This document shows, in pieces, positions 8,690-62,904 of a stretch of 64,000 nucleotides of DNA. Every line of letters begins with the position of its first letter. Within the stretch, counting starts at the first letter, position 1. A model generated the notes under the pieces. The model saw only the letters and a list, made by a program, of their open reading frames with translations. It was not told the origin of the DNA and did no database searches. A program made the translations under genes and the position numbers. The DNA lies in contig CP064960.1 of the NCBI GenBank assembly GCA_016699105.1, forward strand, positions 520,727 through 584,726. The letters are read 5' to 3'. The DNA comes from a bacterium. GTDB lineage: Bacteria; Patescibacteriota; Saccharimonadia; UBA4664.

Positions 8690-12165
<3,476 letters not shown>

Positions 12166-44039: not shown

Positions 44040-44275
44040 GGGTAGGTGAGTGACAATCTAGTAAAACACACTGCCTATAAATTAGGCATGAGCGGTTATC
44101 ACCCGCGAAGTGGCAGGCAGAATAGCTTTCATCTTTTTATAAAGCTTAGTAGATCCTGACGATTATATACCTGGCGTTAACAGGAATGAAAACGAAGTGT
44201 CCATCTGGAAAGCAGGGTGGTACCGTCCGCTAAAAAAAGCGGATCCCTGCACAAATAATTCCGGATGGTTTTTTG
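44040..44275 (+). promoter_or_regulatory. T-box riboswitch leader (Ile specifier) upstream of ileS
   Basis: The T-box core AGGGTGGTACCG lies at 44213-44224. GCAGGG (44212) can pair with CCCTGC (44245) in an alternative helix. GTCCATCTGG (44199) pairs with CCGGATGG, followed by TTTTTT at 44266, forming a terminator. A candidate specifier GGTTATCACCCG carries AUC-A (Ile). Confidence 0.6.
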
Positions 44276-44292
44276 ATGAGAAGGAGATGGCA

Positions 44293-47262
44293 ATGAAAAA
44301 AGCAGTTCAACCTGATTTTCCGGCTTTTGAAGCGGAAATTCTGAAAACTTGGGAGTCTGAAAAAACATTTCAAGCAAGTCTTGAAGCGCGTAAACAGGGC
44401 CAACGGTTTAGTTTTTATGATGGGCCACCTTTTGCTAATGGCAAACCCCATTATGGACACATATTAGCTGCTACAATCAAAGATTCAATAACCCGCTATA
44501 AGACTATGCGAGGTTACTATGTCCCGCGTCGTTTAGGCTGGGATACTCATGGGCTGCCAGTCGAGTATGAGGTTGAAAAGAACTAAAATTGTCGGGTAAA
44601 CAACAAATTTTGGAATATGGCATCGATAAATTTAACACGGTCGCTCGGGCGAGTGTCTTCCGGTATCGCGATGTGTTTGAAAGTTTATATCGTCGTATGG
44701 GACGGTGGGCAGACCAAGATAACGCCTATGCCACATTGGATGATTCGTATATTGAGAGTGTGTGGTGGGTGTTGGCGAAGTTGCATGAGAAAGGTCTATT
44801 ATATCGGGGATTTCGTAGTAATCCTTATTGCCCCCGTTGCGCTACGCCGTTGTCGAATTTTGAAGTAAATCAAAATTACAAAGATAACGTGCCCGATCCC
44901 AGCGTGTACGTTAAATTTCCGGTAGTTGGGCGAGATGGCGTCAGTTTACTGGCTTGGACGACAACACCTTGGACATTGCCGGCGAACGCGGCCTTGGCAG
45001 TAAACAATGCGGCAGTATACGCAGAAGTTGAAATGCAAGGCGATGGTGATTCGTGGACGAAAGGCGAACGACTCATAGTAGCGAAATCGCGATTGGACGA
45101 ACTTACTCTACGTAAAGCCGATTTCCAGATCGTTCAAACGTATATGGGTAAAGAGCTCGCTGGATGGAAATATGTACCGTTATACCCAACAGTCCAAAAA
45201 TTGTCCGATAGCGAGCAAGCAGCCGTTCACACCGTGTACGTAGATGAAAGTGTCAGCCTAGACGATGGTACCGGAGTGCTTCATGTGGCTCCCAGATATG
45301 GTGAAACCGATTTGGCACTGGGCTTACGCGTTGGACTGCCACTGCTTGAGAGTGTAAACGGTTTCGGCAAAATGACTGATGCCATCACAGAGTTGGATGG
45401 CCTTGAAGCGGTCCGAGACACTTTTTCAAGCAAGCTGATGCGCATATTATTGCCGATTTAACGAGTAAAGGCCGGGTGTTTGCGGCAGAAACCTTTGAGC
45501 ATACCTATCCGTTTTGTTGGCGCTGCGAGACGCCGCTACTGTACTTTGCGATGCCGAGCTGGTTTATTGCTGTGACCAAATTGCGAGATCGGTTGGTTGC
45601 GAACAACGATCAAATCAATTGGACACCAGGTCACATCAAAGATGGCCGGTTTGGGAACTGGCTAGCTGAAGCCCGTGATTGGAATTTCAGTCGTAATCGC
45701 TTTTGGGTGCGCCACTGCCAATATGGGTAAACGAGCTAGACGAAACTGACTATATTGTGGCTGGATCCGTCGATGAACTTCGAAAATTGACAGGCGCTCC
45801 ACCAGATTTAGATTTACACCGGCCCGGAATTGACGCTGTTGTAATTAAGCGTGACGGCAAGGTCTATAAACGGACTGAGGAAGTTTTTGACTGTTGGTTT
45901 GAATCGGGTGCTATGCCTTATGCTCAAGATCATTACCCGTTTGCCGAGGCGGCAAGGTTTGAGCAAGCGTTTCCGGCAGAGTTTATCGCTGAAGGTCTTG
46001 ATCAGACTCGCGGTTGGTTTTACACATTGCATGTTTTGGGCACGGCATTATTTGATAAACCGGCGTTTAAAAATGTAATTGTAAATGGCATGGTGCTGGC
46101 AGCAGATGGTAAAAAACTGTCAAAACGACTCAAGAATTATCCGGATGCCGATGAATTGTTTGCGACGACTGGCGTTGATAGCTTGCGCTTTTTCCTCATG
46201 AGCTCGCCAGTGACGACGGGTGAAGATGTGCGCTTTAGCTTTGATGCCGTCAATGAGACGAAGCGTAACGTGTTTATGACCCTATGGAATGTCTATAGTT
46301 TTATGTCCACGTACGCCGAAATCGATGGTTGGGAACCTGCCAGTGCCTACCCTGACGGTAAACTGACAGAACCGACAAGCGATAATCTCCTCGATCAGTG
46401 GATGTTATCACGACTCAACCAAACTATCGCCGAAGTGACCGAGCAGTTGGATGCATACCAACTAGCTCGAGCAGTGCGACCTCTGCGGGATCTCATTGAC
46501 GATGTGTCGAATTGGTATGTTCGGCGGAGCCGACGGCGGTTCTGGAAGAGTGAAGATGATGCCGATAAAGCCAGTGCGTACGTAACGCTGCACTACGTTT
46601 TGTGCCGGCTGACACAATTATTGGCACCGTGGAGTCCATTTGTGCCTGACAAAATGTGGCGTGAACTGACAGCGGGTATGAAGGCGGCAAAGAGCGTTCA
46701 TTTGAGTGATTGGCCCGAAGATGGATCTATTGATGAAGCATTGCTGATGCGGATGTCGAGTACACGCAAAGTTGTGACCGACGGGTTATCGTTACGAGCG
46801 GCTGCCAAGATTAAAGTACGCCAACCACTGGCTCAATTGACCTATGCGCAAGACGATACGTTGGGACATGAGCTCGAGCAAATTGTGGCAGATGAAGTCA
46901 ACGTTAAAACCGTAACTTGGGGTAATGACACAAAGGTTGGTGATGCTGTCGTTTTGGACACTGAAATCTCTCCGGAACTGCGGGCTGAAGGCTTGATGCG
47001 AGAAGTAATCCGACACGTGCAAAGCGCTCGCAAAGCCGCTGAGCTTGAGGTAAATGATCGGATTAATTTGGAGCTGGCAGTCACTGACAATGAATTGTCG
47101 ACCGCTATTTCGACCTACTCAACAGTCATTGCGGCGGAAACGCTGGCTACGCAATTGGTGGTGAGCGGTCAAGAATTGCCCGATGGTAGTACGGTTAAAA
47201 TAGGTGGGATCGAATTAACACTACGGCTGCACAAGGCAGATCAAAGAGCTAAGATAGGTTAG
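44293..47262 (+). CDS. ileS: isoleucyl-tRNA synthetase, interrupted by three homopolymer frameshifts
   Basis: Four consecutive ORFs (44197-44586, 44589-45461, 45476-45730, 45703-47262) together give a full-length IleS, including the HYGH-type [14 protein letters not shown] as KLSKRL, and the editing domain. The shifts are at an AAAG/AAC run near 44580, the TTTTT run at 45422-45426 and a GGG run at 45704-45708. The start at 44293 is preceded by an AAGGAG RBS. Confidence 0.9.
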
Positions 47263-48793: not shown

Positions 48794-49912
48794 CTACTGT
48801 ACGACCCAATACTCGAAGCTGTAGCTGGTGTTGCTGGACGACGGTGCGTTGACTGCTCCCACGGTAAATCCGGTGGCGGTTTTAATGATGTATGGTTGCA
48901 AGGCAGCGCTGCCGCTACCTATGGGCGTGATGATGATATGGGGTGCTCGCGGATAAGCTGATTTGAAGGTGAGGTTGACGAGTAATCCCGCGGTAGAACC
49001 ACTTCCGGTGCGAATTGTGAGGGTGCCGGCGGAATCAATCCCCTCAACACTGGCACTCGAGCCTGATCCGGCTTGACCAGCCGGTGATGCTGATGGAGCT
49101 TGGCCAGAAATCGAAATATGTCCACCGATATTGAGGGTACCGGTCACTGTAACGGTCGTGGCATTGACTGTCGGCGCTGACACGACACCACCGAAACTGC
49201 CATTACCCGTGGTCGTGAGATTGCCGGTAACGGTAGCGCCGGCGCCCAATGTGACGGGGGACTGAGCACTCAAAGGACCAGCTACCGTGAGCTGGCCACG
49301 GACATTGGTGACACCAAGATTGGCCGTTTTATTGGCAGTCAATCCAGCCAATGTCGTATCGCCCGATACTTCAAGTCCACCAATGACCTTGAGGTCTTGG
49401 GAGACAGCGACACGGTTCGAAAACAAAGTGCTGGGGCTAATTGTTAACGTCTGGGCATTGCTCCCGGCTGAATTGCCTTCGAAAAAGCTACCGAGTTTCT
49501 TGAGATCTTCAGACGATAATTCGGTTGTCGTGGTAGTAGCGGTCGGTTGGTTTTTCGATTGCCGGATGGCAAACCAATAATAGCCGCCGAGTAAGGCGGC
49601 CAGGGCGATAATGACACCCAAGGTAGTCAAGAGTGTCGTCATGATATCGGCGCGACGATACACGCCGGTGCGCGACACTTTGCCTTTTGATACCGGTCGA
49701 TGACCATCGCCGGCTGACAATACCGTTGGCATGGTGCCATCTGATAGTGCTTCTGCAGGTGGCGCACCGGCTTTGGCCGCTGTCGGCGGAGCCGGATCGG
49801 CAGGTTTCGCTGGTTTGTCGGATTCGCTTTTGGGGTTTGCGGGTTTTACTGGTTCGTCGGCCATAGTCATATGATACCGCTTGTGGTTTGGAGCAGCAAA
49901 CTGTGTTAGCAT
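48794..49912 (-). CDS. type-II membrane protein with Pro/Ala/Lys-rich cytoplasmic head and extracellular beta-helix-like T/G/V repeat domain
   Basis: The N-terminal segment is Pro/Ala/Lys-rich (ADEPVKPANPKSESDKPAKPADPAPP). One TM follows (MTTLLTTLGVIIALAALLGGYYWF). Then come repeats of the LEVSGDTTLAGLTANKTANLGVTNVRGQLTVAGPLSA type. The likely start is MTMADEP at 49870. Confidence 0.7.
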   Translation of the reverse strand: MLTQFAAPNHKRYHMTMADEPVKPANPKSESDKPAKPADPAPPTAAKAGAPPAEALSDGTMPTVLSAGDGHRPVSKGKVSRTGVYRRADIMTTLLTTLGVIIALAALLGGYYWFAIRQSKNQPTATTTTTELSSEDLKKLGSFFEGNSAGSNAQTLTISPSTLFSNRVAVSQDLKVIGGLEVSGDTTLAGLTANKTANLGVTNVRGQLTVAGPLSAQSPVTLGAGATVTGNLTTTGNGSFGGVVSAPTVNATTVTVTGTLNIGGHISISGQAPSASPAGQAGSGSSASVEGIDSAGTLTIRTGSGSTAGLLVNLTFKSAYPRAPHIIITPIGSGSAALQPYIIKTATGFTVGAVNAPSSSNTSYSFEYWVVQ

Positions 49913-49919
49913 GACAGAT

Positions 49920-50866
49920 ATGGCTGTGTTCCAGGAGTTTAATCATGCCGTGCAGTTTGGACGGCGATTGCCCAAAAGGGAAACATCCTATGCCACCCTG
50001 GTATTCTTGATGATGGCATTAGGTGTGCTGTTGGGTAGTTTTACTTGGACGGCGGCAGCCGACACGCAGGGGACTGCCAAATACAGCGTGACGGCGGTGG
50101 TACCAGGTGCACGGCCAACTCAACCCGTCGTTATAACCTCACCGACAACTGGCCAAACTTTTACCGTCAATCCCGTTGTGGTGGAAGGAACCTGTCAGCC
50201 GGCGACATTAGTAAAAGTATTTACTAATGGCATCATGGTTGGCAGTATTTTTGTAGTGAAAACGGCCGCTTCAGTATTCCGGTGCAACTCGTGATTGGAC
50301 GCAATGATTTAACGGCGCAATCATTTAACGCTCTGGATCAAGAAGGGCCAACATCGGGGACAGTGACGGTTACACTCAACCAACCACCAGGAGCACCCGG
50401 CTTTTCCACTGAGTTATTGATTCAATCGGAGAATTATTATCGGGGGAGCGAGCCTGGTCAAGAGATTGTGTGGCCGATTGAACTCATTGGCGGATTGGCA
50501 CCGTATGCGGTGAGTATTGATTGGGGTGACGGTACTCAAGATCTCATAACCAGGTTGGCGCCGGGCCGGTTTACGGTCAGTCATACCTATAAACAAGTCG
50601 GGGGATACTTGGGATCATACCCGCTCATCATTCGGGCGACTGATTCGGCAGGTCGGACGGCTTATTTGCAATTGACGACCATCGTTAATTCGCCAACGGG
50701 TGCTACAACCGATGGCAGTGGTGCCCAGGCGACGAGCACAACTATCACAAAACTACTGGTGATTTGGCCGATATGGATAGTATTACTGTTGATGATAATC
50801 TCATTCTGGCTGGGTGAACGCCGTGAGAAACATATTATGCAGCGACAAATGGCGGCCTTGGCATGA
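49920..50866 (+). CDS. secreted Ig-like/PKD-domain protein with C-terminal TM anchor, one frameshift
   Basis: Signal peptide (RRLPKRETSYATLVFLMMALGVLLGSFTWTAAA). An Ig-like segment follows, then a PKD-type motif VSIDWGDGTQD...FTVSHTYKQVGGY. The C-terminal TM is LLVIWPIWIVLLLMIISFWL. ORFs 49881-50294 and 50282-50866 join if the TTTTT run at 50247-50252 is corrected. Confidence 0.7.
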
Positions 50867-51570
50867 AGTGGTTTGGTAAACGACGGCCACCTGAACCGGA
50901 AGCGCCGGCTGCTCTGCATGCCAGTGAGCTTCATGGCATGGCGGCTGAGGATTTGGCCGATTATGAGCAAGAGCTAGAATTAACTGATAAGCGCGAAGGC
51001 AAGGGATCCCGGCGTAAAGCTTGGTGGATCACGATTATCATCATGGGGGTGGTAGTAGGCGGTACCATAATTTTGATTTTGAAATATACTTCGGCTCCGG
51101 TAACAGTTGATTTGTCGGCGGCCGCTCCCAGTATTCGGCCGACGCCGACACCTCAAAATGGTCGGGGATTATTATCGGGAATATATGTGGCTTTGGAATA
51201 TCCGGGAGAATTTGATCAAGTCTCGAGAATAACTTCTGACCCAACGGCACTCGAACAATATTCAATCGGTTCGAAAGCCAGTTACCGGCGGCTGATTGCG
51301 GTAAATGTGCGCAAACTGGAATCAGGAAATCTAGATGATGATGCTAGTTATAAACGGCGGCTATTGTATCCAAAAGAGTATACTGAAACCAAGCAGGCGG
51401 TGACGGGAGCTAAGGTGAGTATAATGACAAAAGTAGATGGTCATGAACAAACGCTCTTTTGGGCGCAGGGGGGAAAACTGTTAACGGTGTCGGCTACTTC
51501 AACAGAGTCCGGTGACAATGTACCGGCCTTTTTGGCGACGGTGCGGGAGAGTGTGACATGGCGTCAATAA
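50863..51570 (+). CDS. single-pass membrane hypothetical protein
   Basis: 235 aa. An N-terminal charged region is followed by a TM (AWWITIIIMGVVVGGTIILIL) and then an extracytoplasmic domain. Confidence 0.6.
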   Translation: MKWFGKRRPPEPEAPAALHASELHGMAAEDLADYEQELELTDKREGKGSRRKAWWITIIIMGVVVGGTIILILKYTSAPVTVDLSAAAPSIRPTPTPQNGRGLLSGIYVALEYPGEFDQVSRITSDPTALEQYSIGSKASYRRLIAVNVRKLESGNLDDDASYKRRLLYPKEYTETKQAVTGAKVSIMTKVDGHEQTLFWAQGGKLLTVSATSTESGDNVPAFLATVRESVTWRQ

Positions 51571-52613
51571 CTACGTGGCTGGGATTACCATTGGTATTGT
51601 TGCTATCGGCGTTACCAGCCAGCAATAACTACGAGCTCGGATCATATGGCTTTGGGACCGGTGGCACCAGTAACTCGAGCTCGAGCAACTATCGAATCAA
51701 TGGCGCTGCCGGTGAAGTAGCGGGGTCACAAAACTCAACCAATTATAAAGCAGGTGCTGGTGTCAATTATGAACAGCAAGCGAACGTGCCGATCATCACT
51801 ATTAGTAATGATGACAATTGGTACAACAAACTCAAAATTATCATTGATGCGCAGAACAATCCTAGTGACGCGGTTTTTGCGGTGGCCATATCGACAGACG
51901 GCTTCACGACCACCCAGTATGTGAAATCTGATTTAACGATTGGTTCGACATTAGCCCTAACAGATTATCAAACCTATGCAGCTTGGGGTGGGGCAACCGG
52001 GGTGATGGTGCGCGGACTGGCACGGTCGACGGTCTATTCGGTGAAGGCCCGGGCCATGCGGGGTGATTTCACTGAAAGTGCCTGGGGACCGACGAGTAGC
52101 GCCAGTACGGTAGATCCGACTTTGGTATTTGATATTGATGTGGCGCCAACTGATACGTCGACAAGTTCACCATATGTCGTGGATTTTGGTAGTTTGCCGG
52201 TCAGTACGGTCAGCCAGCCAGCTGATCAAGTGTGGGTTAGTTTGAGTACCAATGGTGAGTCTGGCGGTAAAGTATATCTGAGTGGCCAAAACGCTGGTTT
52301 ACGTAGTACCTTGGCCAGTTACACGATTGCCTCGCAAACTGGCGATTTGAGTGCATTAGCAGAAGGATTTGGGGCTCAGGGGCAATCGGCTACTCAGGGT
52401 TCAGGTGGACCATTGAGCTTGGTCGCGCCGTATAATTCAGCGGGTGCACTCGTGGGAGTTACTGATACAGTTATTCGGGAGATGTTTACAGCACCTGCAC
52501 CTGTTACATCGGGTCGGGGTTCGTTTACCCTCAAGGCTAAAACCCAACCACTGACACCTTCGGGTGGAGACTATGCGGAACTGTTACAGGCTATCGCCTC
52601 GGCGAGCTTTTAA
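51558..52613 (+). CDS. secreted hypothetical protein
   Basis: 351 aa with a signal peptide (MASITTWLGLPLVLLLSALPASN), then a Ser/Thr/Gly-rich globular region. No known motif. Confidence 0.65.
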   Translation: MASITTWLGLPLVLLLSALPASNNYELGSYGFGTGGTSNSSSSNYRINGAAGEVAGSQNSTNYKAGAGVNYEQQANVPIITISNDDNWYNKLKIIIDAQNNPSDAVFAVAISTDGFTTTQYVKSDLTIGSTLALTDYQTYAAWGGATGVMVRGLARSTVYSVKARAMRGDFTESAWGPTSSASTVDPTLVFDIDVAPTDTSTSSPYVVDFGSLPVSTVSQPADQVWVSLSTNGESGGKVYLSGQNAGLRSTLASYTIASQTGDLSALAEGFGAQGQSATQGSGGPLSLVAPYNSAGALVGVTDTVIREMFTAPAPVTSGRGSFTLKAKTQPLTPSGGDYAELLQAIASASF

Positions 52614-52706
52614 TGATTGTGAATAAATGGGGTTGACAAAAATACAGCGTTTACAATAGGATAAGCGTAAGTAGTTCAGTAATAAAAACTACAAATCAAA
52701 ATCAAA

Positions 52707-53846
52707 ATGCAGAATCGAAAACTACACATCACCCTCGCCGCAATCGCCGCCATCATGGCGGACTTGTTCGTGCCAGCGCTTGTTGGTACGGCTTTAGCGG
52801 CGCCACAGTTTACGCAAGCGTTCGTACGACCTGATCGGCACAAGGAGCTGACAGCTACAGGTGCGACCGTTTGTGCGACACCGACAGCAGCGACAACTGG
52901 TCAAACTGAAGACCAAGTGGTGGTCATATTCCCGACTGACGGTGGTGCCACTGACTTTGTGGTAAACGCTACCGCTGCGAACTGGGTTGTAAACAATACC
53001 GACCTGCCAGCGGGCTCGACTTTCTGGCCTGGTATGACTTCGGGAACAACAACAGCATCAAATGTCAGTGGAAAAACCGTCACTTTTCCATCAGGTGACT
53101 TGTCAGCAGCAACTCAGTATTGTTTTCACATTGTAGGCACAAACACCCTGACAAATGGCTCGGCTACTACCTCTATCAACATTACTGGTGCGACATTATA
53201 TAGCCGAGTATCTGGTGGACCTACGATCGTTAACCAAACCAACTGGGCTTATACTGTAACTACCGATGATAGTATTGTCATCTCAGCGGTAGTGCCGCCG
53301 AACTTCACCATCGCCTTGAGCGCCTATGTAGACGCCTTCACAACAAACCTTGACCCTGCCGGCATCGTCAGCACCACAGGAGTTGATGCCACTATCACGA
53401 CCAATGCTGTCGGTGGTTGGATAGCTTGGGCCAAAGATCAATATGGTGGACTGTATTCGGCCGCAGCTAACTATACCATAGCTTCAGGGCTGATGAACCC
53501 ATACCCAACCCAACTGTATGCGGTCGGCGACCCTGCCTTCGACCTGGTGGCCAGTGCCGGTGGAGTTGGACGTGAAGGTTACGTCATGGACGTCGATATC
53601 GATACTGATGCTGCAAGCGGTTGTACCGTCGCAATTGATGCTGCGTACAACAGCGCGAGTGGTAATGGTGGCGGCGTCTTGAGCAGCACCAGTTTCCGGC
53701 CAATCGCTGGTTGTACCGGAACAGCGCCTGCGACTTCAGATGGTGATATCATCACACTCATCGAACGAGCGGTCATCCGCGGTGGTACTCCAGCCGGATC
53801 AGACTATACCGACGTCATTACTGTCGTCGGTGCTGGTAACTTCTAA
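52707..53846 (+). CDS. secreted surface protein, paralog A of a tandem pair
   Basis: 379 aa with a signal peptide. It shares conserved blocks with the next gene: VVPPNFTIAL, GGWIAWAKDQYGGLYSA, EGYVMDVDIDTDAASGCTV, AGCTGTAPATSDGD and a C-terminal SDYTDVITVVGAGNF. Confidence 0.75.
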   Translation: MQNRKLHITLAAIAAIMADLFVPALVGTALAAPQFTQAFVRPDRHKELTATGATVCATPTAATTGQTEDQVVVIFPTDGGATDFVVNATAANWVVNNTDLPAGSTFWPGMTSGTTTASNVSGKTVTFPSGDLSAATQYCFHIVGTNTLTNGSATTSINITGATLYSRVSGGPTIVNQTNWAYTVTTDDSIVISAVVPPNFTIALSAYVDAFTTNLDPAGIVSTTGVDATITTNAVGGWIAWAKDQYGGLYSAAANYTIASGLMNPYPTQLYAVGDPAFDLVASAGGVGREGYVMDVDIDTDAASGCTVAIDAAYNSASGNGGGVLSSTSFRPIAGCTGTAPATSDGDIITLIERAVIRGGTPAGSDYTDVITVVGAGNF

Positions 53847-53972
53847 AAGTACCATTCACTTTCGAAAACTATCATAGCCCATAAGCAACATGCAATAGTT
53901 TACTTGCATGTTGCTTATGCTTTGGAGTACACTTGAGGGGAAACTAGAAATAAAGAGAGAGTGTAGATTAGA

Positions 53973-55049
53973 GTGTCCATGCAGCGGGTCCGGCGGACAA
54001 AGCGAATACGGATAGTCGGAGCTATAATTCTGCTGCTCGCGGTAGTGGCTGATTTTGTACCTATACAGGCACAAGCTGGGTTTATCCAAGCTTATTTGCG
54101 TCTCGACCGGATGAAGATTAACACTGCTAGCGGTGGTTTGGTCTGTGCTCGGGCGTCATTGGCCGGTCCAACCGAAGCCAAAGTCATTGTGACATTTCCT
54201 TCGACGTATACGCTTAATACTACGGCTGCCAACTGGGTGATGACAACCACCAATCTGCCGAGCGGAGCTACGGCCTGGCCGGGTGTTGTGTCTGGTACTA
54301 CTACAGCCAGTGCTGTGGACAATACTCTCAAGACGGCGACGTTTCCGTCAAATGACTTACCTAACAACACCACGTTGTATTGTTTTAATTTTGCGGCCGC
54401 CAGTACATTGACGACAGCGGCTGCGGCCGCTAATAGTCAGCAAGCCAGCATTCAAACTCAGACATCAGCCAATGCGGTGATTGATCTGACGCAAATAGCA
54501 CTAGCTAATGCTACCGATGACACTATTCTTGTGACAGCGGTGGTGCCACCGTCGTTTATTTTTACCATGAGCGGTTATGCTGACCCCTTTGCTTCGAATC
54601 TAGACCCGCTCGCGGTTGTAAACACGAGCGGTATTATGGTTGATGTCGTCACAAACGCTAAAGGTGGCTGGATAGCGTGGGCGCGTTCGCAGTACGCGGG
54701 ATTATATTCGGCGACGGCTGGGTATACTATCCCGACCGTTGGTACGATCAACGGAGCTGTATCGAACCTAACGGCTGGAAATGAAGGGTACGTGATGGAT
54801 GTAGACCTGACGGCTGATGCGGCCAGCGGTTGTACAGTCAATATTGATAATGAATATGACGGATCTACAGCCACTGAGGGCGGAACGCTGTCGACGAGCT
54901 ACCAGCCTTTAGCTGAGTGTACAGGTACCTCTCCTGCAACTGCCAATCATGATCAATTTACTCTGACTGAACGCGCGGCGATTTCGGGTGCAACGCCAGC
55001 CAGCTCAGACTATACTGATAATATAACGGTCGTAGGGGCAGGTAATTTT
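53973..55049 (+). CDS. secreted surface protein, paralog B of the tandem pair
   Basis: It shares the same motif set with paralog A (VVPPSFIFTM, GGWIAWARSQYAGLYSA, EGYVMDVDLTADAASGCTV, AECTGTSPATANHD, SDYTDNITVVGAGNF). The track ORF reads through to 55157, but removing one T from the T6 run at 55045-55050 creates TAG directly after GAGNF, matching paralog A. Confidence 0.75.
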
Positions 55050-55056
55050 TTAGACT

Positions 55057-56160
55057 ATGAAGTTGTCCGATTCGGTAGTGAAATGGGTGTGTGCCAGTTT
55101 AAGTGCGGTCATGATTGCGGGCAATTTGAGCTGGCCGGCGACGGTATATGCGGTTGACGCTGAAGAATCCGCGCCGCTGGTATTACAAACGTCGCCGTTG
55201 CCGATAAATTTGCAAGTTGATCCGGGTAAATCGGTAACTACCGAGCTCAAAGTCAAACAAAGTGGGACTGAAAAAGCCCGGCTCAAGGTCGGTTTGATGA
55301 AATTTACTGCCTATGGTGAAGAGGGTAAGCCCGAACTCAAAGACCGAGAAGCTGGTGATGATTATTTTGATTGGGTTAAATTTGATAAAACCGAATTTGA
55401 TGCGCCCATCAATGTGTGGCAGACCGTCAAAATGACTATTACGGTACCAAAATCAGCCGCTTTTGGGTATTACTATGCTGTAACGTTTTCGCGCGTGGGT
55501 GACGATGTGAAACGGACTGACCGGACCAACTCAATCGCGGGAGCGACAGCGACATTGGTGCTGTTAGAAGCTGTTAATCCGAATGCAAAGCGCGAGCTGC
55601 AGCTTGATAGTTTTGGCTCAAAACATCGGGTATATGAGTTTTTGCCGGCTGAGTTTGATATCAAACTCAAGAACGTGGGTAATGTGCATGCGGTACCTTC
55701 GGGAGATGTATTCATCTTGCAGGGCAATAAGCAACTGGCGGCGTTGCCGATCAACGGTGGCTTCGGCAATATATTGCCGGATTCAAACCGAATATTCCCG
55801 GCGAAGTGGAGCGATGGCTTTCCGCACTGGGAGCCAGTGATTGCCGATGGTAAAACCAAGCTGGATAAGAACGGCAAAATTGTTAAAAAATTGGTCTGGG
55901 ATTGGGGCAAGCTTAGTAGTATCAGGATTGGTCGCTATACTGCCCATTTATTTGCCGTCTATGACGATGGTAAGCGCGATATTCCAATTGAAACTGAGAT
56001 TACGTTTTGGGTGATTCCGTGGCGGTTCCTACTAGTAGTGCTGGTGATATTGGCACTGGTGGCTCTCGGTGTGTACGGTATGGTGCGGGAGGCTTCAATA
56101 AACTGGCTGGCAAGCGCGGCAAATCAAGGACACTGCGCGGCCGGAGGCGGTAATGATTAG
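55057..56160 (+). CDS. DUF916/DUF3324-like cell-surface protein with C-terminal TM anchor
   Basis: Signal peptide. The N-terminal domain (VLQTSPLPINLQVDPGKSVTTELKVKQSGTEKARLKVGLMKFTAYGEEGKPEL) and C-terminal domain (FDIKLKNVGNVHAVPSGDVFILQGNK) are arranged like CscA-type Gram-positive surface proteins. It ends with a TM segment (FLLVVLVILALVALGVYGMV). Confidence 0.65.
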   Translation: MKLSDSVVKWVCASLSAVMIAGNLSWPATVYAVDAEESAPLVLQTSPLPINLQVDPGKSVTTELKVKQSGTEKARLKVGLMKFTAYGEEGKPELKDREAGDDYFDWVKFDKTEFDAPINVWQTVKMTITVPKSAAFGYYYAVTFSRVGDDVKRTDRTNSIAGATATLVLLEAVNPNAKRELQLDSFGSKHRVYEFLPAEFDIKLKNVGNVHAVPSGDVFILQGNKQLAALPINGGFGNILPDSNRIFPAKWSDGFPHWEPVIADGKTKLDKNGKIVKKLVWDWGKLSSIRIGRYTAHLFAVYDDGKRDIPIETEITFWVIPWRFLLVVLVILALVALGVYGMVREASINWLASAANQGHCAAGGGND

Positions 56161-57090
56161 TCGGCGACAGATCTGGTTACTGGCAGTAATGATTGTCTGT
56201 CTGCCGGCAGTAGCGATGTCGGCAACCAAACCCACTGGACTCGTGCTGACGCCAGCTTTTCAGACAGTGCAGATAAAGACTAATGATGGTCGGCTCCCAT
56301 TTGAGCTTTCGATAACCAATCGCGATACCTCGGCACAAACGTTTGCCTTGTCGGCAATTGATTTTGGCAGCCTTGATGAAGAAGGTGGCGTGGCATTTCT
56401 GGGAGCGCCAGCCAGTGAACTCGAGCACAAGTATGGCTTGGCGGCTTGGTTGGAGCTCTCTCAGAAGTCGGTTGTAGTGTCTCCCGGGCAAACGGTAAAA
56501 GTGGGGGTGACGATCGTTAACCGACCCAGTTTGGTGGCAGGCGGACATTATGGAGCAGTCTTAGCTACGGCTCAACTACCCGGATCGGCAGTTAAGGGTG
56601 AGCAAGTCGGTGTGCAACAAGTCTTGAGTAGTTTGATACTGGCGGTCAAAGAAGGCGCTGGTGGTGCCAAATTGGATCTGAAAAAGACAAACTGGCACCA
56701 CAGTTTTTGGCGCTTGCCGACTGAGTTTAAGCTCGGATTTGGCAATAGTGGCACGGTTCACGCGCTGCCGCGAGGTACGGTGGTGGTAACAGATCCTGGG
56801 GTCGAAAAGTGGCTCAAGGCGAGCTCAATGAAGCCAGTAGCGTGATACTGCCGGAAACGAACAGGAATTATGAAGTCGCTATGCGGACTGTCAGTCAAGC
56901 TTGGTTGCCCGGCCGCTATATGGTCAGTATCAATTATCGCGACGAAACCCAAGAAAATTTTCAGGCAGTCCATCAGACAATATGGCAGGCGGGTGCGGTC
57001 GTCGTCTGGGTTGCCATGGTGTTGGCAATCTTAAGTACCGCCGGACTGGCTTGGTGGTTGTTTGGGCGTCGCCGAAAACGTCGACGTTAG
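56153..57090 (+). CDS. second DUF916/DUF3324-like anchored surface protein, with a frameshift near 56810-56845
   Basis: Same architecture: signal peptide, LVLTPAFQTVQIKTNDGRLPFELSITNRDTSAQTFALSAI, then GNSGTVHALPRGTVVVTDP. The C-terminal part (NYEVAMRTVSQAWLPGRYMVSINY...VVVWVAMVLAILSTAGLAWWLFGRRRKRRR) is in overlapping ORF 56809-57090. Confidence 0.65.
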
Positions 57091-57185: not shown

Positions 57186-60100
57186 ATGATGTGGGTTAAG
57201 TCGGTAGCATATAACCGTCGCAAGGTCGCTGGGGCACTCTTTGCCACCAGTCTTTTGGCGTTGGCTTTGTTCTTGAATGGACTAAGCAGTGTGCAAGCTG
57301 CAGTTGGTATCAATAAACAGGTCAATTTCCAGGGTAAAGTCGTCAATGCCAATGGCACCAATGTAGCCAATGGTACCTATACGTTTGTGTTTAATATCTA
57401 TACCCAACAGGCTCCCGGTGGGACTTCAATTTGGACCGAGTCAAAAAGTCTGACCGTGACAGACGGAATTTTTCAGACCAATTTGGGTTCGGTGACGAGC
57501 CTTCCGGGATCGGTGGACTTCAATACCGATAATATTTTCCTGGGGATAAACTTCAACAGTGACGGCGAAATGACGCCACGTATTCAATTCACGGCTGCCG
57601 CCTATGCCTTTAACTCAGATCGTTTAGGTGGACTGACGGCGGCATCGTTCGCGCAGCTCAGTCCAGCCTCTGCCCAAACCGGCTCGCTCAATGTCACTGG
57701 CACGGTGCAAGCAGCTACTAGTTTACAAGCGCCATTACTCGATACGGCGACGGCTGTGGCGCTCAATATTGGTACTGCCACTGCTACAAGTGTGACCATT
57801 GGCCGGACTTCAACACCGTTTGTGGTGCAAGGCAACAGTAGCTCGACTTTTACAGCCACCAACGGTAGCTTTACAGCTACAGTTGGCTTTACGACCCCGA
57901 CGGCCAATAACAGTATTTCGTTCCCGAATGCCGGGGGCACAATTTGTACGACTGTCGCTAGTACCTGTAATACCACTTACGCACCATATGCTGCTGGTGG
58001 ATATCTGGCCAAAAATGCTGCCGACACCTCAGCCGCAGCCGTGACGGCTGCCAATTACTTGTACGGATTTACCAATTCGAGCTCGGCCGTGGCAAGTGGA
58101 GTTCTACGACTCGACAATGGTACCAACACTGGTAACGGTTTGTTGGTTACAGCCAGTGGTAATCCGGGTGCTAGCAGTGCCTTAATTGTGGCCAACAACA
58201 CCGCCGGATCCCAGCGGCAATTTAATTGATCTCAAAAGCCGGAGTCGGTGTCTTTACAGTTGATTATAACGGTAGCCTGACCCAAAGCGGGGATCAGGTA
58301 CTACCCAGACGATTAACGGCCAGAGGATATCGAGTGCGGCCAACTTCACTGGCACCGTGACGGCTGCTACCAGTTTCTTGAGTACGTTGATCGATACACC
58401 TACTGCTGGCGGAACACTGGCAATTGGTACGACCAACGCTACTGGCGGTATCAATTTGAACCAAAATACCACGGTCGGTAGTGGCAAGACTCTCACCGCA
58501 AACGGATCAGTCCTGGTACAGTCAGCCGCCAATTCTACTTCGTCGTTTAACATTAAAAATTCGACAAACAATAACTTATTTACAGTAGATACTTCAAACT
58601 CAAGAGTCGGCATTAATCTGACTAGCAATAATGTACCGACACTTCAGGGAACCGGGTTGGAAGTGAATGGAGCATTACGGCTATCGGGTGGACGTAGTAG
58701 TGGTACGGCGGTCGATACATTTACAACACCAGCAAGTAGTAGTGTTGAAACTAAAATTAATATACCGATATATGATGCAGGGGCATTCGGACAGGTTTTA
58801 GCATTTGGCTTACCGTCGACAGGCTGTACTGGTGTAACGACTACCAGCTGTACGGCCAGGGCTATTTCCGTTTTTGACGCACGGACGCTTAGCCATCAAC
58901 CTTCAATTGGCGTGTTCGCACCAGATGAAAATACCTTGGTTGGTTTTTCGTGGGAAGGCAGTAATAGTGTGGCTTCGGTAATGACAAATTCAGGTAGTGG
59001 ATCTAGTGACGGCATCATACTGCAAAGTGGTGCCACCACGGGCGCCAGTGGTACCTCGGGTACCGTATCGGTGGTCAGCGGCGACGGCACTGGTACCAAT
59101 AGCTCAAGTGGCAACGTGACAGTAGATTCGGGCGCCAAGACTGGTACCGGTACGAATGGTACGGTAAATATTGGTACAACTAATGCCAGTGCCGTGACGG
59201 TAGGTCGCAACAATAGCGGTGTAGCTTTGACGTTGCAAGGATCAGCTTCGACCATTTTCCGGGCGACTGGTGTGAGTGGTACCACTACATTAGACTTCAC
59301 CGCTCCCAGCGGCTCGAATACTGTGCATGTGCCAGCCGAATCGGGCACGATTTGTCTCCAATCAAGTGTAAACTGCGGTTTTGTAGTAGGTTCGTCGACA
59401 AGCTTCTTGGCGCGTAACGCTGCCGATACTTCGACAATCAATGCAGCGGGAAATCTTTATGGTTTGAGCAATACTAATGCTGGCGCCGCTGGAGTGCTGG
59501 CTTTGACTAATGCTGGCACCAACTCGGCACTGGCAGTTACGAGCTCAGGTAACCCAACGAGCGGTCAAGCGGTCATATTGGCTACTAATTCAAATGGTTC
59601 TCCCAGCGGCAATCTTATCGATCTGCGGGTGACAGCAGGGAGTCGGTTTAGTGTGGACACAGCGGGTGTAGCGACAGCAACAAATTCGATCGTGACACCA
59701 ACCCATACTTCGGCAGATGTAGCAACTGGATTATCGGCTGATGCCACGTTTAGATCTGGTAACGGGACCGCTGGTAACGCTAGTACTGGCAGTGTTACGG
59801 TACGGTCGGGTAATGCTAATGGTACTGGCAGCTCGGGAAATGTGACGTTTGATGTTGGTACCAAAGGTGGGGGAGTCGGAAGTAATGCTGGAAATCTGTA
59901 TATCGGCAATACCAATGCGGCCAATGTGGTGGTGGGTCGAAATGCGGTTACGGCCAGTGGCGCCACCGTTTCCATCCAAGGCTTGGCCGCCACCAGTAAT
60001 ATGATTATGAACAATGCCGCCAATACGGCTAGTACCACGATAGGATTTCAAGCACCAACTGCCAACGTAACCTACGAATTTGCGGCCGCGACTGTCGGAA

Positions 60101-62904
60101 CCTATCAATTGTGTAGCACCTATGCCACAACCTGTAGTACGACTTATGCACCCTATACGGCTGGTGGTTACTTGGCTAAATCGCCGACAAGCACCGAAAG
60201 TTCAAGTAGCTCGATAGCGGGCAATCAGTACAGTTTTGCTAATACTAATGGTGGGGCCGCGGGTGTGCTGGCACTAGCCAATACCGGTACGAATTCGGCG
60301 TTGAGCGTGTCGAGTGCGGCCAACCCAACAAGCGGCCAAGCGGTAATCTTGGCGACCAATTCCAATGGTACGCCTTCAGGCAATTTACTTGACTTGCGGG
60401 TAACGGCGGGTAGCCGGTTTAGCGTTGATGCGGCTGGAGCGGTAACCACCAGTAGCACTATTAATGGGCAGACCATTTCAGCAACGGCCAACTTTACCGG
60501 TACCGTCACGGCAGCTAATACAGTCAGTATTACTACAGGTGGCTTGAGTGTGACGGCTGGTGGTGTAGCTATTACAGCAGGTGGACTAACAGTGTCAGCA
60601 GGTGGAGCGAATATTAGTGGTGGTCTCAATAATAATGCCGGTGGCATTACCAATACCGGAGCTGTCAGTGGGGCGACCAGTTTAGCCTTTACGGGTGCGG
60701 CTGCAGATGTTACGGGCGCCCGGGACATTACCGGAACGGGCACCATTACTGGTGGCGGAGCGTTCAAATCGGCAGATAGCACGACGGCTAGTTCAAGCGC
60801 TACCAGCCTCAAGAGTGGAGATGTCAACACTGCTACGAACGGATTTAATACCGGCAATGTGATCGTTGACTCTGGTGCTCGAACGGGTGGTGGAACTGGA
60901 ACAACTGGCACTGTCAGTATTGGGGCGACTAATGCCAGTGGTGTGACGGTTGGTAATAGCGCTGCAGCCTTTACCGTGCAGGGAACGGCTGGTAGTGGTG
61001 CGTCGAAGTTAGTTTTGGAAATACCACGGTCAATGCCCAATCGTCAGCGACGGTGGCTACCTACCAATTTGCCGCACCGACCAGTGCCACAACTTACACC
61101 ATTTGTACGACTGATACCGCTTCCTGTGGCGCTGGTTCCGTGGGGTATTTGCGCAAAGGGTGGCGGGCGAGACATCTTCGGCTGGCATGACGGCCGCGCA
61201 AGCGCTGTACAACTTTTCCAATACTGGTGGTGTCCAAAGTGACGTTCTTCAACTCGATAATGGTGCTGGCACTGGATCGGCCTTACGCGTAACGGCAGCT
61301 GCTAGTGCGGCGGCCAACAATGCCCTGGTGTTGGTGGACAATACCCTCAACAATGCTACGGGCAATCTGCTTGATCTACGAAGTACTCAAGCCGGCGTCA
61401 GCGCCAGCCGCCTAAGCGTGAGCACGACGGTGCGGTTACGGGCGGCACTTTCAACGGCCAAACGATAAGTGCCACTGCTAGTTTCACAGGTACTGTTGGT
61501 ACGGGCGGACTGTTGACAGCCCATAGCTTGACCGTGACAAACACAGCTACCTTCAATGCTGGAGCGACTGTTAACAACGTGGCCTTGACGGCCAATGCTG
61601 GAGCTTCCGTGACCGGTGGTATCAATAACAACGCGGGCGGCATAACGGGTGCTGGAGCCATCAGCGGATTGACGAGCCTCGAGTTTAGCTCGGCTGGCAC
61701 CATTGATACCAACGCTGCCATTTCTTTGAGTATCGGTACTGCTCAAGCTTCGACAGTGTCCGTCGGTCGCACTGGTGGCACGCTCAGTTTGCAAGGAAAT
61801 GCTTCAACGTCACTTTCGGCGACCAACGCAGGTTCGACTACCAGTCTGCAGTTTGCCACACCTACCGCCAATGTGATCTACCAATTTGCGACAGCTCCAG
61901 CTAACACCTATCAGATCTGTACCACCTATGCCAGTACTTGTAGCTCAACGTATGCTGCCTATTACGCGGGTGGTTATGTGCAGTTGGCTCCCGGCACAGC
62001 CCAGGCCGACGCCACAGCTAACCCCAGCATCTTTATCAGCAAAACAGCAGCTGGTTATCTGGCCAGACTCCAAAATACCGGCACAGATGTATTTTCGGTT
62101 CAAACGAACGGCACTATGACATCGAGTGGTTTAGCCTACTTGGGTGGCACATCTGGCAATTATGTAGCGCAAGTTGATACGACTAATTTCAAAGTGCGCA
62201 TTGGTACTGGTACGCCCACTAGGGGCAGTGAAGGTGCCAATTCGACGGCTGGCTTGTATGTGAGTGGCGCCACTGAAGCGGCTGGACTCGTACTTATCGG
62301 TACTACTTCCAACGGGGCCACCTTCGACGCAACCAACCATGAGCTGACGTTATCGGGTACTGCCCGGCACACTCGTCGGGTCTCAATGGTGCCGGAATAT
62401 GCCGGGGCAGTTATGACACCGAGCGGTACTTCAAATACGGGGTTGATGACCTCGGACTTTTGTTCTGGATCAGGGCGCCTAAACATTCCAACTAGTGGCA
62501 ATGTGTGTGCATCCAGCGACGAACACAACTTCTATAAATGGGTGTCGGCCAACTCGAGTACCCAAACATATGACATCTATGTGCGGTATTTGCTCCCGGC
62601 TGACTTTTCGGCCTTTACCGGCGATAATACAATATACATGAGCGGTTACCGGACGACATCAAGTGATAGCGTAGCTCTGGCTATCTATCAACCGAATGGC
62701 ACAATTTGTGGCTCATCGACGAACATAGCTACCGGTACGGCAGCCTGGACCGAGAATACGGTGACTGCGCCCATCGCCACCACCTGTGCTGCCAACTTTA
62801 CTGCTAATTCATTGGTGACGTTCCGGGTAAGACTGACCTCAACGAGTACGGTAAATGCAGCGTTAGCAGGGGAGATACGGTTTGACTATCGCTCGATTTA
62901 TTAA
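57186..62904 (+). CDS. giant secreted repetitive surface protein of about 1900 aa, fragmented by several frameshifts
   Basis: The ORFs are 57186-58229, 58357-61242, 61160-61468 and 61513-62904, plus pieces in other frames. The first ORF starts with a signal peptide (MMWVKSVAYNRRKVAGALFATSLLALALFLNGLSSVQA). At least five repeats of a roughly 330-aa module carry Q[FI]xxPTANxxYxFA...TYQ[IL]C[ST]TYA[ST]TC[ST][ST]TYA[PA]YxAGGY[LV] and NSNG[ST]PSGNL[IL]DLRVTAGSRFSVD. The DNA repeats are about 75% identical (59521-59680 vs 60291-60450). The sequence ends with a distinct C-terminal domain and a TAA stop at 62904. Confidence 0.7.

What the first reader, a model, noticed from the sequence alone, without database searches (positions are those of the whole stretch)
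52707..55049. Tandem paralogous secreted proteins sharing distinctive blocks and a predicted identical ...VVGAGNF C-terminus
The genes at 52707 and 53973 share the block set listed in their feature entries, with diverged N-terminal halves. Paralog B reads through into the next gene only because of a T6 run. With T5 it terminates exactly like paralog A. These could be candidate subunits of a polymeric surface structure.
Basis: seen in the sequence. Interest (0 to 1): 0.55.

Follow-up and report, generated by a model that had tools for sequence, protein, structure and literature searches.

The report
Tandem Pam-type pilin genes, CPR bacterium
Two neighbouring genes in a Saccharimonadia (CPR) genome most likely encode subunits of the recently described "Pam" pilus, and the apparent read-through of the second gene is a one-base assembly error, so the locus is real but of an already known kind.

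Summary
A (52707-53846, 379 aa) and B (53979-55049) are paralogs: 47% identity, E 1e-94. They are 44% identical in the N-terminal domain and 80% over the last 30 residues.

B's 35-residue tail comes from a T6 run at 55046-55051. Six independent assemblies at 99.3-99.9% identity all have T5, so B ends ...VVGAGNF-stop, 3 nt before the next gene. Every indel between the window and those assemblies lies at a homopolymer run; nearly all are a single base. Of 120 homologs, 116 end in GNF, and none carries an extension.

The genes sit in an operon conserved across Saccharimonadia and Microgenomatia. It holds:
- a PamR anchor (NCBIfam E 3e-88);
- a third pilin paralog;
- A and B;
- two paralogous chaperones with a PapD/CsuC/WxLIP-like fold and a C-terminal membrane helix;
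- a fibre-like protein.

A's predicted structure is signal peptide, nine-strand sandwich, conserved linker, then a C-terminal Ig-like domain. This matches the Pam pilins of Mycosynbacter amalyticus (bioRxiv 2026).

Direct comparison with PamA, PamB or PamE could not be run.

The parts
49881..50866 (+). PamR-like membrane anchor or terminator (RbmA-like, C-terminal TM helix). In the window it is split into two ORFs by a homopolymer error near 50248 (T5 here, T6 in the other assemblies).
   Evidence: The window fragment 50282-50866 matches NF058578 PamR at E 9e-59. The intact 318-aa version in L001 scores 295.3 bits over the full length, E 3.4e-88, against a cut-off of 300. The indel is listed.
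50863..51570 (+). Conserved 235-aa protein 'X' with an internal TM segment; function unknown.
   Evidence: It lies between the PamR-like and T-like genes in most Saccharimonadia loci. It has no Pfam or NCBIfam hit.
51558..52613 (+). Third pilin paralog ('T-like', 351 aa, ends ...IASASF). It shares the linker and C-terminal domain with A and B but has a different N-terminal domain, and its N-terminus weakly resembles PamT.
   Evidence: hhalign of A1 against A5 gives probability 99.0%, E 7e-18, aligning A residues 194-379. NF058579 PamT matches residues 19-81 at E 2.9e-7, far below the cut-off.
52633..52662 (+). Promoter-like site TTGACA-18-TAGGAT upstream of A.
   Evidence: Consensus scan, 10 of 12 positions matched. 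This is a pattern match only.
52707..53846 (+). Pilin paralog A (379 aa). It has a signal peptide ending ...TALA|APQF, a nine-strand N-terminal domain, a linker (invariant A194, V196, P197, P198, F200), a C-terminal Ig-like domain, four invariant Cys, and ends GNF-COOH.
53880..53919 (+). Perfect 16-bp hairpin directly after gene A; probably a terminator or attenuator, or an mRNA-stabilising element.
   Evidence: RNA fold of the intergenic region gives -35.7 kcal/mol, z = -3.4. Hairpins, several followed by T runs, sit after the first pilin gene in other species.
53904..53933 (+). Conserved promoter-like element TTGCAT-18 nt-TACACT upstream of B, with an invariant CTTATGCTT in the spacer.
   Evidence: Alignment of 10 intergenic regions from different species shows invariant TTG...CTTATGCTT...A.A.T.
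53979..55049 (+). Pilin paralog B (357 aa once corrected). The true stop, TAG, follows Phe when the T run is T5.
55046..55051 (.). T6 homopolymer; the extra T is an assembly error that removes B's stop codon.
   Evidence: T5 in L001-L006. All other indels between the window and those assemblies are also 1-2 nt changes at homopolymer runs.
55057..56160 (+). Chaperone C1 (365 aa once corrected): two beta-sandwich domains plus a C-terminal TM helix. It starts 3 nt after B's true stop. Its C-terminal tail is garbled in the window by an indel near 56087.
   Evidence: AF2 pLDDT 89.8, helix 322-356. Foldseek PDB top hits are WxLIP 9i25_C (5e-10), CsuC 5d6h_A (2e-9), CfaA, YadV and RbmA.
56153..57090 (+). 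Chaperone C2 (312 aa once corrected), a paralog of C1 with a C-terminal TM helix. It is split in the window by an indel near 56795.
   Evidence: hhalign of A3 against C2 gives probability 97.2%, E 3e-11. Indel; operon conservation.
57186..61242 (+). Large fibre-like secreted protein (1260 aa in the independent assembly), split in the window by indels at 58210-58289.
   Evidence: Gene call in L001. A weak N-terminal match to the 'mosaic adhesive trimer fiber' family, E 1.5e-5. The Pam preprint reports a tail-fibre-like gene co-located with pam operons.

Best explanation
A and B are two tandemly duplicated structural subunits (pilins) of a Pam-type pilus. This is the donor-strand-exchange filament recently solved by cryo-EM in the Saccharimonadia parasite Ca. 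Mycosynbacter amalyticus.

Proposed mechanism:
- Each precursor is exported by Sec, and its signal peptide is cut after ...ALA (inferred).
- The mature protein has a variable nine-strand beta-sandwich N-terminal domain, a highly conserved linker strand (..AVVPPxFxF..), and a C-terminal incomplete Ig-like domain (predicted).
- The two membrane-anchored PapD/CsuC-like chaperones encoded immediately downstream hold the open C-terminal domain. The linker strand of the next subunit then replaces the chaperone strand, which polymerises the fibre (inferred from the Pam and chaperone-usher paradigms).
- The T-like paralog probably caps or starts the fibre, and the PamR-like protein terminates it and anchors it in the membrane (inferred).
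- A has its own promoter-like site and a strong downstream hairpin, so it is probably the abundant major subunit. B is transcribed with the chaperones from a conserved second promoter-like element and is probably a second or adaptor subunit (inferred).
- The nearly invariant free C-terminus ...G-A/G-G-N-F-COOH is probably needed for chaperone or groove recognition, as the C-terminal carboxylate is in chaperone-usher subunits (inferred).

The 35-residue tail on B in this window is not biological. It comes from a one-base homopolymer error (T6 for T5) in this assembly.
For: Paralogy: 47% identity, E 1e-94.

Assembly error: six independent assemblies have T5, and every indel against the window is at a homopolymer run, several of them breaking conserved genes. 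The extended 394-aa form is on one contig only, whereas the 357-aa form is on 18.

Invariant C-terminus: 116 of 120 homologs end in GNF, and none is extended. All complete members in the fetched species-level loci end at the same aromatic residue. Profile matches in 1.84 billion representatives usually run to the last residue.

Operon identity:
- PamR scores 295 bits over the full length, E 3e-88.
- The PamT model weakly hits the upstream paralog.
- The order R-X-T-P(-P)-C1-C2 is conserved across loci.
- C1's model has two beta domains and a C-terminal helix, and Foldseek returns chaperone-usher chaperones CsuC, CfaA and YadV, plus WxLIP and RbmA.
- C1 and C2 are paralogs.

Pilin architecture:
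- AF2 pLDDT is 87.9, with a signal helix, nine strands at 37-179, a linker, and a C-terminal beta domain.
- Conservation is highest in the linker and C-terminal domain.
- Four Cys are invariant, two in each domain.
- These features match the description of PamA, PamB and PamE in bioRxiv 10.64898/2026.03.03.709456.

Taxonomy: the loci come from Saccharimonadia and Microgenomatia only. Loci titled Gammaproteobacteria or Pseudomonadales are probably mislabelled: the one such contig tested (L030) carries a Gottesmanbacteria-like CTP synthase.
Against: No direct sequence or structure comparison with PamA, PamB or PamE was possible. Their sequences and the PDB entries 25PZ and 25QA are not in the accessible collections.

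NCBIfam has no model that hits A, B, C1 or C2.

Foldseek of the full-length A model returned only generic Ig-like adhesin, pilin and integrin hits with low TM-scores.

Gene order appears to differ from what I infer for the M. amalyticus pam operon. The upstream T-like gene is a two-domain protein, not the single-domain PamT.

Polymerisation, donor-strand geometry and the role of the C-terminal Phe are inferred, not shown. No multimer prediction could be run.
Confidence: 0.85

Rival explanations
1. A and B are non-polymerising surface proteins held on the cell envelope by the downstream membrane-anchored two-Ig-domain proteins. This would be analogous to Firmicutes WxL proteins bound by WxLIP (DUF916/DUF3324): an adhesin complex rather than a pilus.
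For: The best PDB structural match of C1 is WxLIP from E. faecium bound to a WxL protein (9i25_C, E 5e-10), slightly ahead of the chaperone-usher chaperones. WxLIP has the same layout: two Ig-like domains, a C-terminal TM helix, and a strand inserted into its partner (PMC10599100).
Against: A and B have no WxL Pfam match or motif. C1 has no significant sequence match to WxLIP; one of 68 family members scored E 0.053. The operon carries a near-equivalog PamR, and the Pam operon of M. amalyticus makes filaments seen by cryo-EM. A WxL chain is not among A's top 50 structural hits.
Confidence: 0.08
2. The T6 run is genuine in this strain, either as a recent mutation or as phase variation, so B really carries a 35-residue C-terminal extension that overlaps the chaperone gene.
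For: The deposited genome and its GenBank annotation (QQR53150.1, 394 aa) contain it. Homopolymers can be phase-variable.
Against: Six independent assemblies from different samples have T5. The window differs from them by 1-2 nt indels at about ten homopolymer sites, which break or truncate PamR, C1, C2 and the fibre gene. IleRS is also fragmented elsewhere in the window. None of roughly 230 family members inspected has any extension. A T5/T6 tract is short for slipped-strand switching.
Confidence: 0.03
3. A and B are secreted enzymes or substrate-binding proteins unrelated to any fibre.
For: None beyond their being secreted proteins without annotation.
Against: They have no match to any enzyme family in Pfam, NCBIfam or PDB sequences. 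The predicted fold is all-beta and Ig-like. They are tightly coupled to chaperone-like genes.
Confidence: 0.02

Closest known systems
Pam pilus of Ca. Mycosynbacter amalyticus (PamA/PamB/PamE pilins, PamT, PamC/PamD chaperones, PamR); bioRxiv 10.64898/2026.03.03.709456
   Same: Both are in CPR (Saccharimonadia). The pilins are Sec-exported two-domain proteins with a nine-strand N-terminal domain, a conserved linker and a truncated Ig-like C-terminal domain, and carry paired cysteines. A and B are about the size of PamB (about 38 kDa). Both have two paralogous PapD-like chaperones with C-terminal TM helices. PamR is recognised at near-equivalog score. A fibre-like gene lies nearby.
   Different: The gene order here is R-X-T-P-P-C1-C2. 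An extra conserved gene, X, is present. The PamT-like gene is a two-domain pilin paralog rather than a single-domain protein. No ATP synthase genes are adjacent; the neighbours identified upstream are IleRS, FtsW, L21, FtsA and FtsZ. Sequence identity to PamA, PamB and PamE is unknown because it could not be tested.
Chaperone-usher pili of diderm bacteria (Pap, Fim, Csu, CFA/I)
   Same: C1 has the two-domain chaperone fold, with Foldseek hits to CsuC, CfaA and YadV at 1e-9 to 1e-7. The presumed assembly is by donor-strand complementation and exchange. The subunit C-terminus is conserved, ending in an aromatic residue with alternating hydrophobic positions before it. The major-subunit gene is followed by a hairpin.
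   Different: There is no usher and no outer membrane. The chaperones are membrane-anchored. The pilins have an extra N-terminal domain, and the donor strand is an inter-domain linker rather than an N-terminal extension (according to the Pam preprint). There is no detectable sequence similarity.
WxL / WxLIP (DUF916-DUF3324) surface-protein clusters of Firmicutes
   Same: The best structural match of C1 is WxLIP (9i25_C). Both have two Ig-like domains plus a C-terminal TM helix and are encoded next to secreted beta-rich partner proteins in a monoderm organism.
   Different: A and B lack the WxL domain and motifs. There is no significant sequence similarity. WxL proteins are described as peptidoglycan-bound, not filament-forming.
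Sortase-assembled pili of Gram-positive bacteria
   Same: The pilins are built from tandem Ig-like domains, the organism is monoderm, and BcpA appears among the weak fold hits.
   Different: There is no LPXTG sorting signal, no sortase in the operon and no pilin-motif lysine evidence. The C-terminus is a free ...GNF.

Membership tests
Pam pilins (CPR Pam pilus) | N-terminal Sec signal peptide | tested here: met
   A and B both have a hydrophobic N-terminal helix (A residues 2-25 in the AF2 model). In A it ends ...TALA|AP. No dedicated signal-peptide predictor was available.
Pam pilins (CPR Pam pilus) | [quoted passage not shown] | tested here: met
   The AF2 model (pLDDT 87.9) has nine strands between residues 37 and 179, linker strands at 183-204, and a beta-rich C-terminal domain at 221-377. 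This was judged from secondary structure only; coordinates could not be inspected.
Pam pilins (CPR Pam pilus) | Highest conservation in the donated linker and the C-terminal-domain binding site | tested here: met
   Invariant A194, V196, P197, P198, F200 in the linker. Mean conservation is 0.73 for the linker, 0.69 for the C-terminal domain and 0.84 for the last 30 residues, against 0.63 for the N-terminal domain.
Pam pilins (CPR Pam pilus) | Paired cysteines (two or three pairs) | tested here: met
   Four invariant Cys in A (56, 139, 306, 336), and four in B at the equivalent positions. The pairing itself was not verified.
Pam pilins (CPR Pam pilus) | Encoded in an operon with PamR, PamT and two membrane-anchored PapD-like chaperones | tested here: met
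   PamR scores 295.3 bits against a cut-off of 300. C1's fold and TM helix are, and C2 is a paralog. PamT is only a weak partial match, E 3e-7.
Pam pilins (CPR Pam pilus) | Detectable sequence or structure homology to PamA, PamB or PamE themselves | not testable with these tools
Pam pilins (CPR Pam pilus) | Restricted to CPR (Saccharimonadia, Microgenomatia) | tested here: met
   57 loci are from Saccharimonadia, Patescibacteria or Levyibacteriota MAGs. The 'Gammaproteobacteria'-titled contig L030 carries a Gottesmanbacteria-like CTP synthase at 74-76% identity.
Pam pilins (CPR Pam pilus) | Forms helical filaments by donor-strand exchange | not testable with these tools
   This needs a multimer prediction or cryo-EM.
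Chaperone-usher pilus system | Outer-membrane usher | tested here: not met
   No usher-like gene is present in the operon or in any related locus. The host is a CPR lineage, which is generally monoderm.
Chaperone-usher pilus system | PapD-like two-domain chaperone | tested here: met
   Foldseek returns CsuC, CfaA and YadV at E 2e-9 to 2e-7, with TM-score 0.5-0.56 normalised to the target. This is structural similarity only; there is no Pfam PapD hit.
WxL / WxLIP cluster | Partner protein carries a WxL domain (PF13731, dual Trp-x-Leu) | tested here: not met
   A and B have no Pfam match at E <= 1.
WxL / WxLIP cluster | DUF916 and DUF3324 sequence families in the membrane-anchored protein | tested here: not met
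   Only 1 of 68 C1-family members touched WxLIP_PGBD, at E 0.053. The similarity is structural only.
Sortase-dependent pilins | C-terminal LPXTG-type sorting signal with hydrophobic tail | tested here: not met
   A and B end ...VVGAGNF-stop, with no LPXTG and no hydrophobic tail.

The most novel reading that the evidence does not exclude
The Pam machinery and the Firmicutes WxL/WxLIP clusters may be two branches of one ancient monoderm system. In both, membrane-anchored PapD-like proteins would hold and hand over secreted beta-sandwich subunits by strand complementation. In the Pam family, the invariant free C-terminal ...GNF carboxylate would be the chaperone-docking signal, functionally equivalent to the C-terminal carboxylate anchor of chaperone-usher subunits.

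A corollary concerns family members in which a whole pilin module sits at the C-terminus of a subtilase, an NHL propeller or a TIG array. These could be enzymes or adhesins built directly into the pilus.
Probability: 0.25. Interest if true: 0.6.

Novelty: new member of a known kind. Interest (0 to 1): 0.35.

Why it matters
Pam pili are thought to be how parasitic or epibiotic CPR bacteria first reach their hosts, and they were described only in 2026 from a single organism. This locus adds four things.
- The system is present in a different Saccharimonadia lineage, with a different and widely conserved gene order.
- It documents a tandem pilin duplication with a variable outer domain.
- It identifies a nearly invariant C-terminal GNF end that any annotation or model must respect.
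- It shows that the deposited genome mis-annotates the second pilin, and several neighbouring pam genes, because of homopolymer errors. Anyone modelling or expressing these proteins needs to know that.

Tried and rejected
Searches that returned nothing useful:
- Pfam and NCBIfam scans of A and B gave no hits at E <= 1.
- An NCBIfam scan of 109 family members hit only PamT, and weakly. A PamA, PamB or PamE model either does not exist or does not reach this family.
- PDB sequence searches with A alone and with a diverse profile found nothing meaningful.
- Foldseek of full-length A against PDB gave only generic Ig-like hits (integrin legs, MSCRAMM adhesins, BcpA, FimF) with TM-scores around 0.2, probably because of the two-domain geometry and the signal helix.
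- The preprint's supplement holds no sequences.
A direct A/B versus PamA/PamB/PamE comparison was therefore impossible.

Ideas considered and rejected:
- The C-terminal aromatic residue as an outer-membrane beta-signal. CPR bacteria are monoderm, and the operon context points to pili.
- A sortase signal. There is no LPXTG.
- Programmed frameshift or phase variation at the T run. It is contradicted by six assemblies and by the overall indel pattern.
- Occurrence of the family in Gammaproteobacteria. The one tested contig with that label carries a CPR housekeeping gene.
- The 23S rRNA insertions. ORFs inside them gave no Pfam hit.
Full report
**Observation.** The region holds two same-strand ORFs. 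A is 52707-53846 (379 aa). B is listed as 53973-55157 (394 aa). BLASTP gives 47% identity over the full length, E 1e-94. Identity rises along the protein: 43.5% in the N-terminal domain, 48.6% in the linker, 60.8% in the C-terminal domain and 80% in the last 30 residues.

A ends ...ITVVGAGNF-stop. B has the same heptapeptide, followed by 35 more codons that overlap the next gene by 101 nt. The T run is 55046-55051, one base to the right of the finding's coordinates. With five Ts the reading becomes AAT TTT TAG.

B most likely starts at ATG 53979. An AGAG lies 5 nt upstream, the same arrangement as in orthologous loci, and independent gene calls give 357 aa.

**Is T6 real?** Protein A occurs with an identical sequence on ten other contigs. 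Eight were fetched: seven Logan assemblies of sequencing runs and one ENA assembly with SPAdes-style contig names. They are 99.3-99.94% identical to the window.

All six contigs that cover the site have T5. Every indel between the window and these contigs is a 1-2 nt change at a short homopolymer run (A3/A4, T5/T6, G3/G4, G4/G5, C2/C3). The one exception is a strain-specific difference in L007.

Several of these indels break conserved genes in the window:
- PamR is split near 50248.
- The C1 tail is garbled near 56087.
- C2 is split near 56795.
- The fibre gene is split at 58210-58289.

The isoleucyl-tRNA synthetase further upstream is also in pieces. This is the signature of homopolymer consensus errors in a long-read assembly; that attribution rests on general knowledge, not on a tool result.

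The 394-aa form of B exists only as GenBank QQR53150.1 on one 1.32 Mb contig. The 357-aa form is recorded on 18 contigs. B therefore ends ...VVGAGNF, and its stop lies 3 nt before the start of the next gene.

**The C-terminus is a family constant.** Of the 120 best homologs of A, 116 end in GNF, three end in GSF or GVF, and one is truncated. None continues past the Phe.

An HMM built from A, B and 89 homologs found 111 members in the loci fetched from GTDB species representatives. Every complete one stops at the same aromatic residue. Against 1.84 billion cluster representatives the profile finds 731 proteins at E <= 1e-3 and 521 at E <= 1e-10. In nearly all of the complete proteins among the 150 listed, the match runs to the last residue.

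**What the genes are.** A and B have no Pfam, NCBIfam or PDB sequence match, but their neighbours are informative.

*PamR.* The gene upstream, intact in the independent assemblies at 318 aa, matches NCBIfam NF058578 'pilus system RbmA-like protein PamR' over its full length. It scores E 3.4e-88 and 295 bits against an equivalog cut-off of 300.

*Third paralog.* The 351-aa gene just before A weakly matches the N-terminus of NF058579 'CPR-type pilus protein PamT'. By profile-profile comparison it shares the linker and C-terminal domain with A and B (99% probability, E 7e-18), but its N-terminal domain is different.

*Chaperones.* The two genes after B are paralogs of each other (97% probability). 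C1 was modelled at pLDDT 89.8 as two beta-sandwich domains followed by a long C-terminal helix. Its Foldseek hits in the PDB are:
- WxLIP of E. faecium (9i25_C, 5e-10);
- the chaperone-usher chaperones CsuC, CfaA and YadV (2e-9 to 2e-7);
- RbmA.

*Published system.* These names come from a 2026 preprint (bioRxiv 10.64898/2026.03.03.709456). It solved the thin filaments of Ca. Mycosynbacter amalyticus by cryo-EM. The filaments are built from PamA and PamB: Sec-exported pilins with a nine-strand N-terminal sandwich, a linker strand donated to the truncated Ig-like C-terminal domain of the neighbouring subunit, and paired cysteines. The same operon encodes PamE, PamT, two PapD-like chaperones with C-terminal membrane helices (PamC and PamD), and the RbmA-like PamR.

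*Fit of A.* The AF2 model of A (pLDDT 87.9) shows the following:
- a signal helix;
- nine strands between residues 37 and 179;
- a linker segment at 183-204;
- a beta-rich C-terminal domain.

The invariant residues cluster in the linker (A194, V196, P197, P198, F200) and the C-terminal domain, and four cysteines are invariant. Each of these features matches the published description.

**Conservation of the operon.** In the fetched species-level loci the order is U(-) | PamR - X - T-like - pilin (one or two copies) - C1 - C2. This order is conserved across Saccharimonadia. A second clade has the order pilin - C1 - C2 - T-like.

Records of that second clade are titled Pseudomonadales or Gammaproteobacteria. 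I tested one of them, L030. Its CTP synthase is 74-76% identical to proteins from Gottesmanbacteria and the Patescibacteria group. The label on that contig is therefore wrong, and the family stays within CPR, as the preprint states.

The tandem A/B duplication is present in the lineages nearest the window and in a few others.

**Expression signals (partly followed up).**
- A is preceded by a TTGACA-18-TAGGAT promoter-like site.
- A is followed by a perfect 16-bp hairpin at 53880-53919.
- In other species the first pilin gene is likewise followed by strong hairpins, several with T runs.
- Upstream of B lies a promoter-like element, TTGCAT-18-TACACT, with an invariant CTTATGCTT in its spacer. 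It is conserved in ten loci.

I infer that A is a separately and strongly expressed major subunit, and that B is co-transcribed with the chaperones.

**Mechanism.**
- Shown: paralogy, the true stop codon, the invariant C-terminus, the operon composition, and the predicted folds.
- Inferred from the Pam and chaperone-usher paradigms: Sec export, capture of the open C-terminal domain by C1 or C2, replacement of the chaperone strand by the next subunit's linker, a start or cap at the T-like paralog, and termination and anchoring by PamR.
- Hypothesis: the free ...GNF carboxylate is a chaperone-docking element, by analogy with the C-terminal carboxylate that PapD anchors with conserved basic residues. 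If so, the spurious 35-residue tail would matter for anyone modelling B.

**Rivals.**
- A WxL/WxLIP-like wall-bound complex is the most serious alternative, because WxLIP is C1's top structural hit. However, A and B lack WxL features, and the operon is a pam operon.
- A genuine T6 is very unlikely.
- An enzymatic role has no support.

**Verdict.** The object is a new member of a kind that is already known, though only very recently described. Interest is modest. The value lies in the corrected gene models, the variant operon layout, the invariant C-terminus, and the structural link between Pam chaperones and WxLIP.

Noticed in passing
window 53904-53933 (also L009, L010, L011, L017, L018, L022, L035, L037, L016): A conserved non-coding element, TTGCAT-18 nt-TACACT, lies upstream of the second pilin gene. 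The spacer contains an invariant CTTATGCTT, which is unusual for a plain promoter spacer, so it may be a regulator site or an RNA element. In the window its 5' half forms the 3' arm of the hairpin after gene A.
   Followed up: partly
P0261, P0267, P0268, P0273 (representative-library hits, not in the window): A complete pilin module sits at the C-terminus of long multidomain proteins. The N-terminal parts are a subtilase S8 with CHB_HEX_C domains (1113 aa), five TIG plus twelve NHL repeats (1641 aa), five TIG domains (936 aa), and Big_5 domains (784 aa). These may be enzymes or adhesins incorporated into pili, or they may be gene-fusion artefacts.
   Followed up: partly
window 47243, 50248, 52629, 55046, 56087, 56795, 57175, 58210, 58234, 58289; IleRS ORFs 44197-47262: The window carries many 1-2 nt homopolymer indels relative to independent assemblies. 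They split PamR, C2, the fibre gene and isoleucyl-tRNA synthetase. Gene models from this deposited genome should be treated with caution.
   Followed up: yes
L025, L028-L031, L036, L059 (GTDB representative contigs): Records titled 'uncultured Pseudomonadales/Gammaproteobacteria bacterium' carry the pilin-chaperone operon. The one tested contig (L030) has a CTP synthase 74-76% identical to Gottesmanbacteria and Patescibacteria proteins, so these look like mislabelled or mis-binned CPR (Microgenomatia) sequences. Their gene order, pilin-C1-C2-T, differs from the Saccharimonadia order.
   Followed up: partly
window 55057-57090 (C1, C2): The best solved-structure match of the Pam-type chaperone is the Firmicutes WxL-interacting protein WxLIP (9i25_C), slightly ahead of the chaperone-usher chaperones. 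The Pam preprint does not mention WxL or DUF916. The two monoderm systems may be related.
   Followed up: partly
window 8695-12161: The 23S rRNA gene spans 3467 nt against a 2925-position model, so it contains roughly 540 nt of insertions, as is often seen in CPR rRNA genes. ORFs on the opposite strand inside it gave no Pfam hit.
   Followed up: partly
window 48794-49912 (- strand) and 50863-51570 (+): Two uncharacterised genes are conserved with the operon across Saccharimonadia. 'U' (about 370 aa) is divergently transcribed, and 'X' (about 235 aa, membrane-spanning) lies between PamR and the T-like pilin. Neither appears among the components named in the Pam preprint.
   Followed up: no
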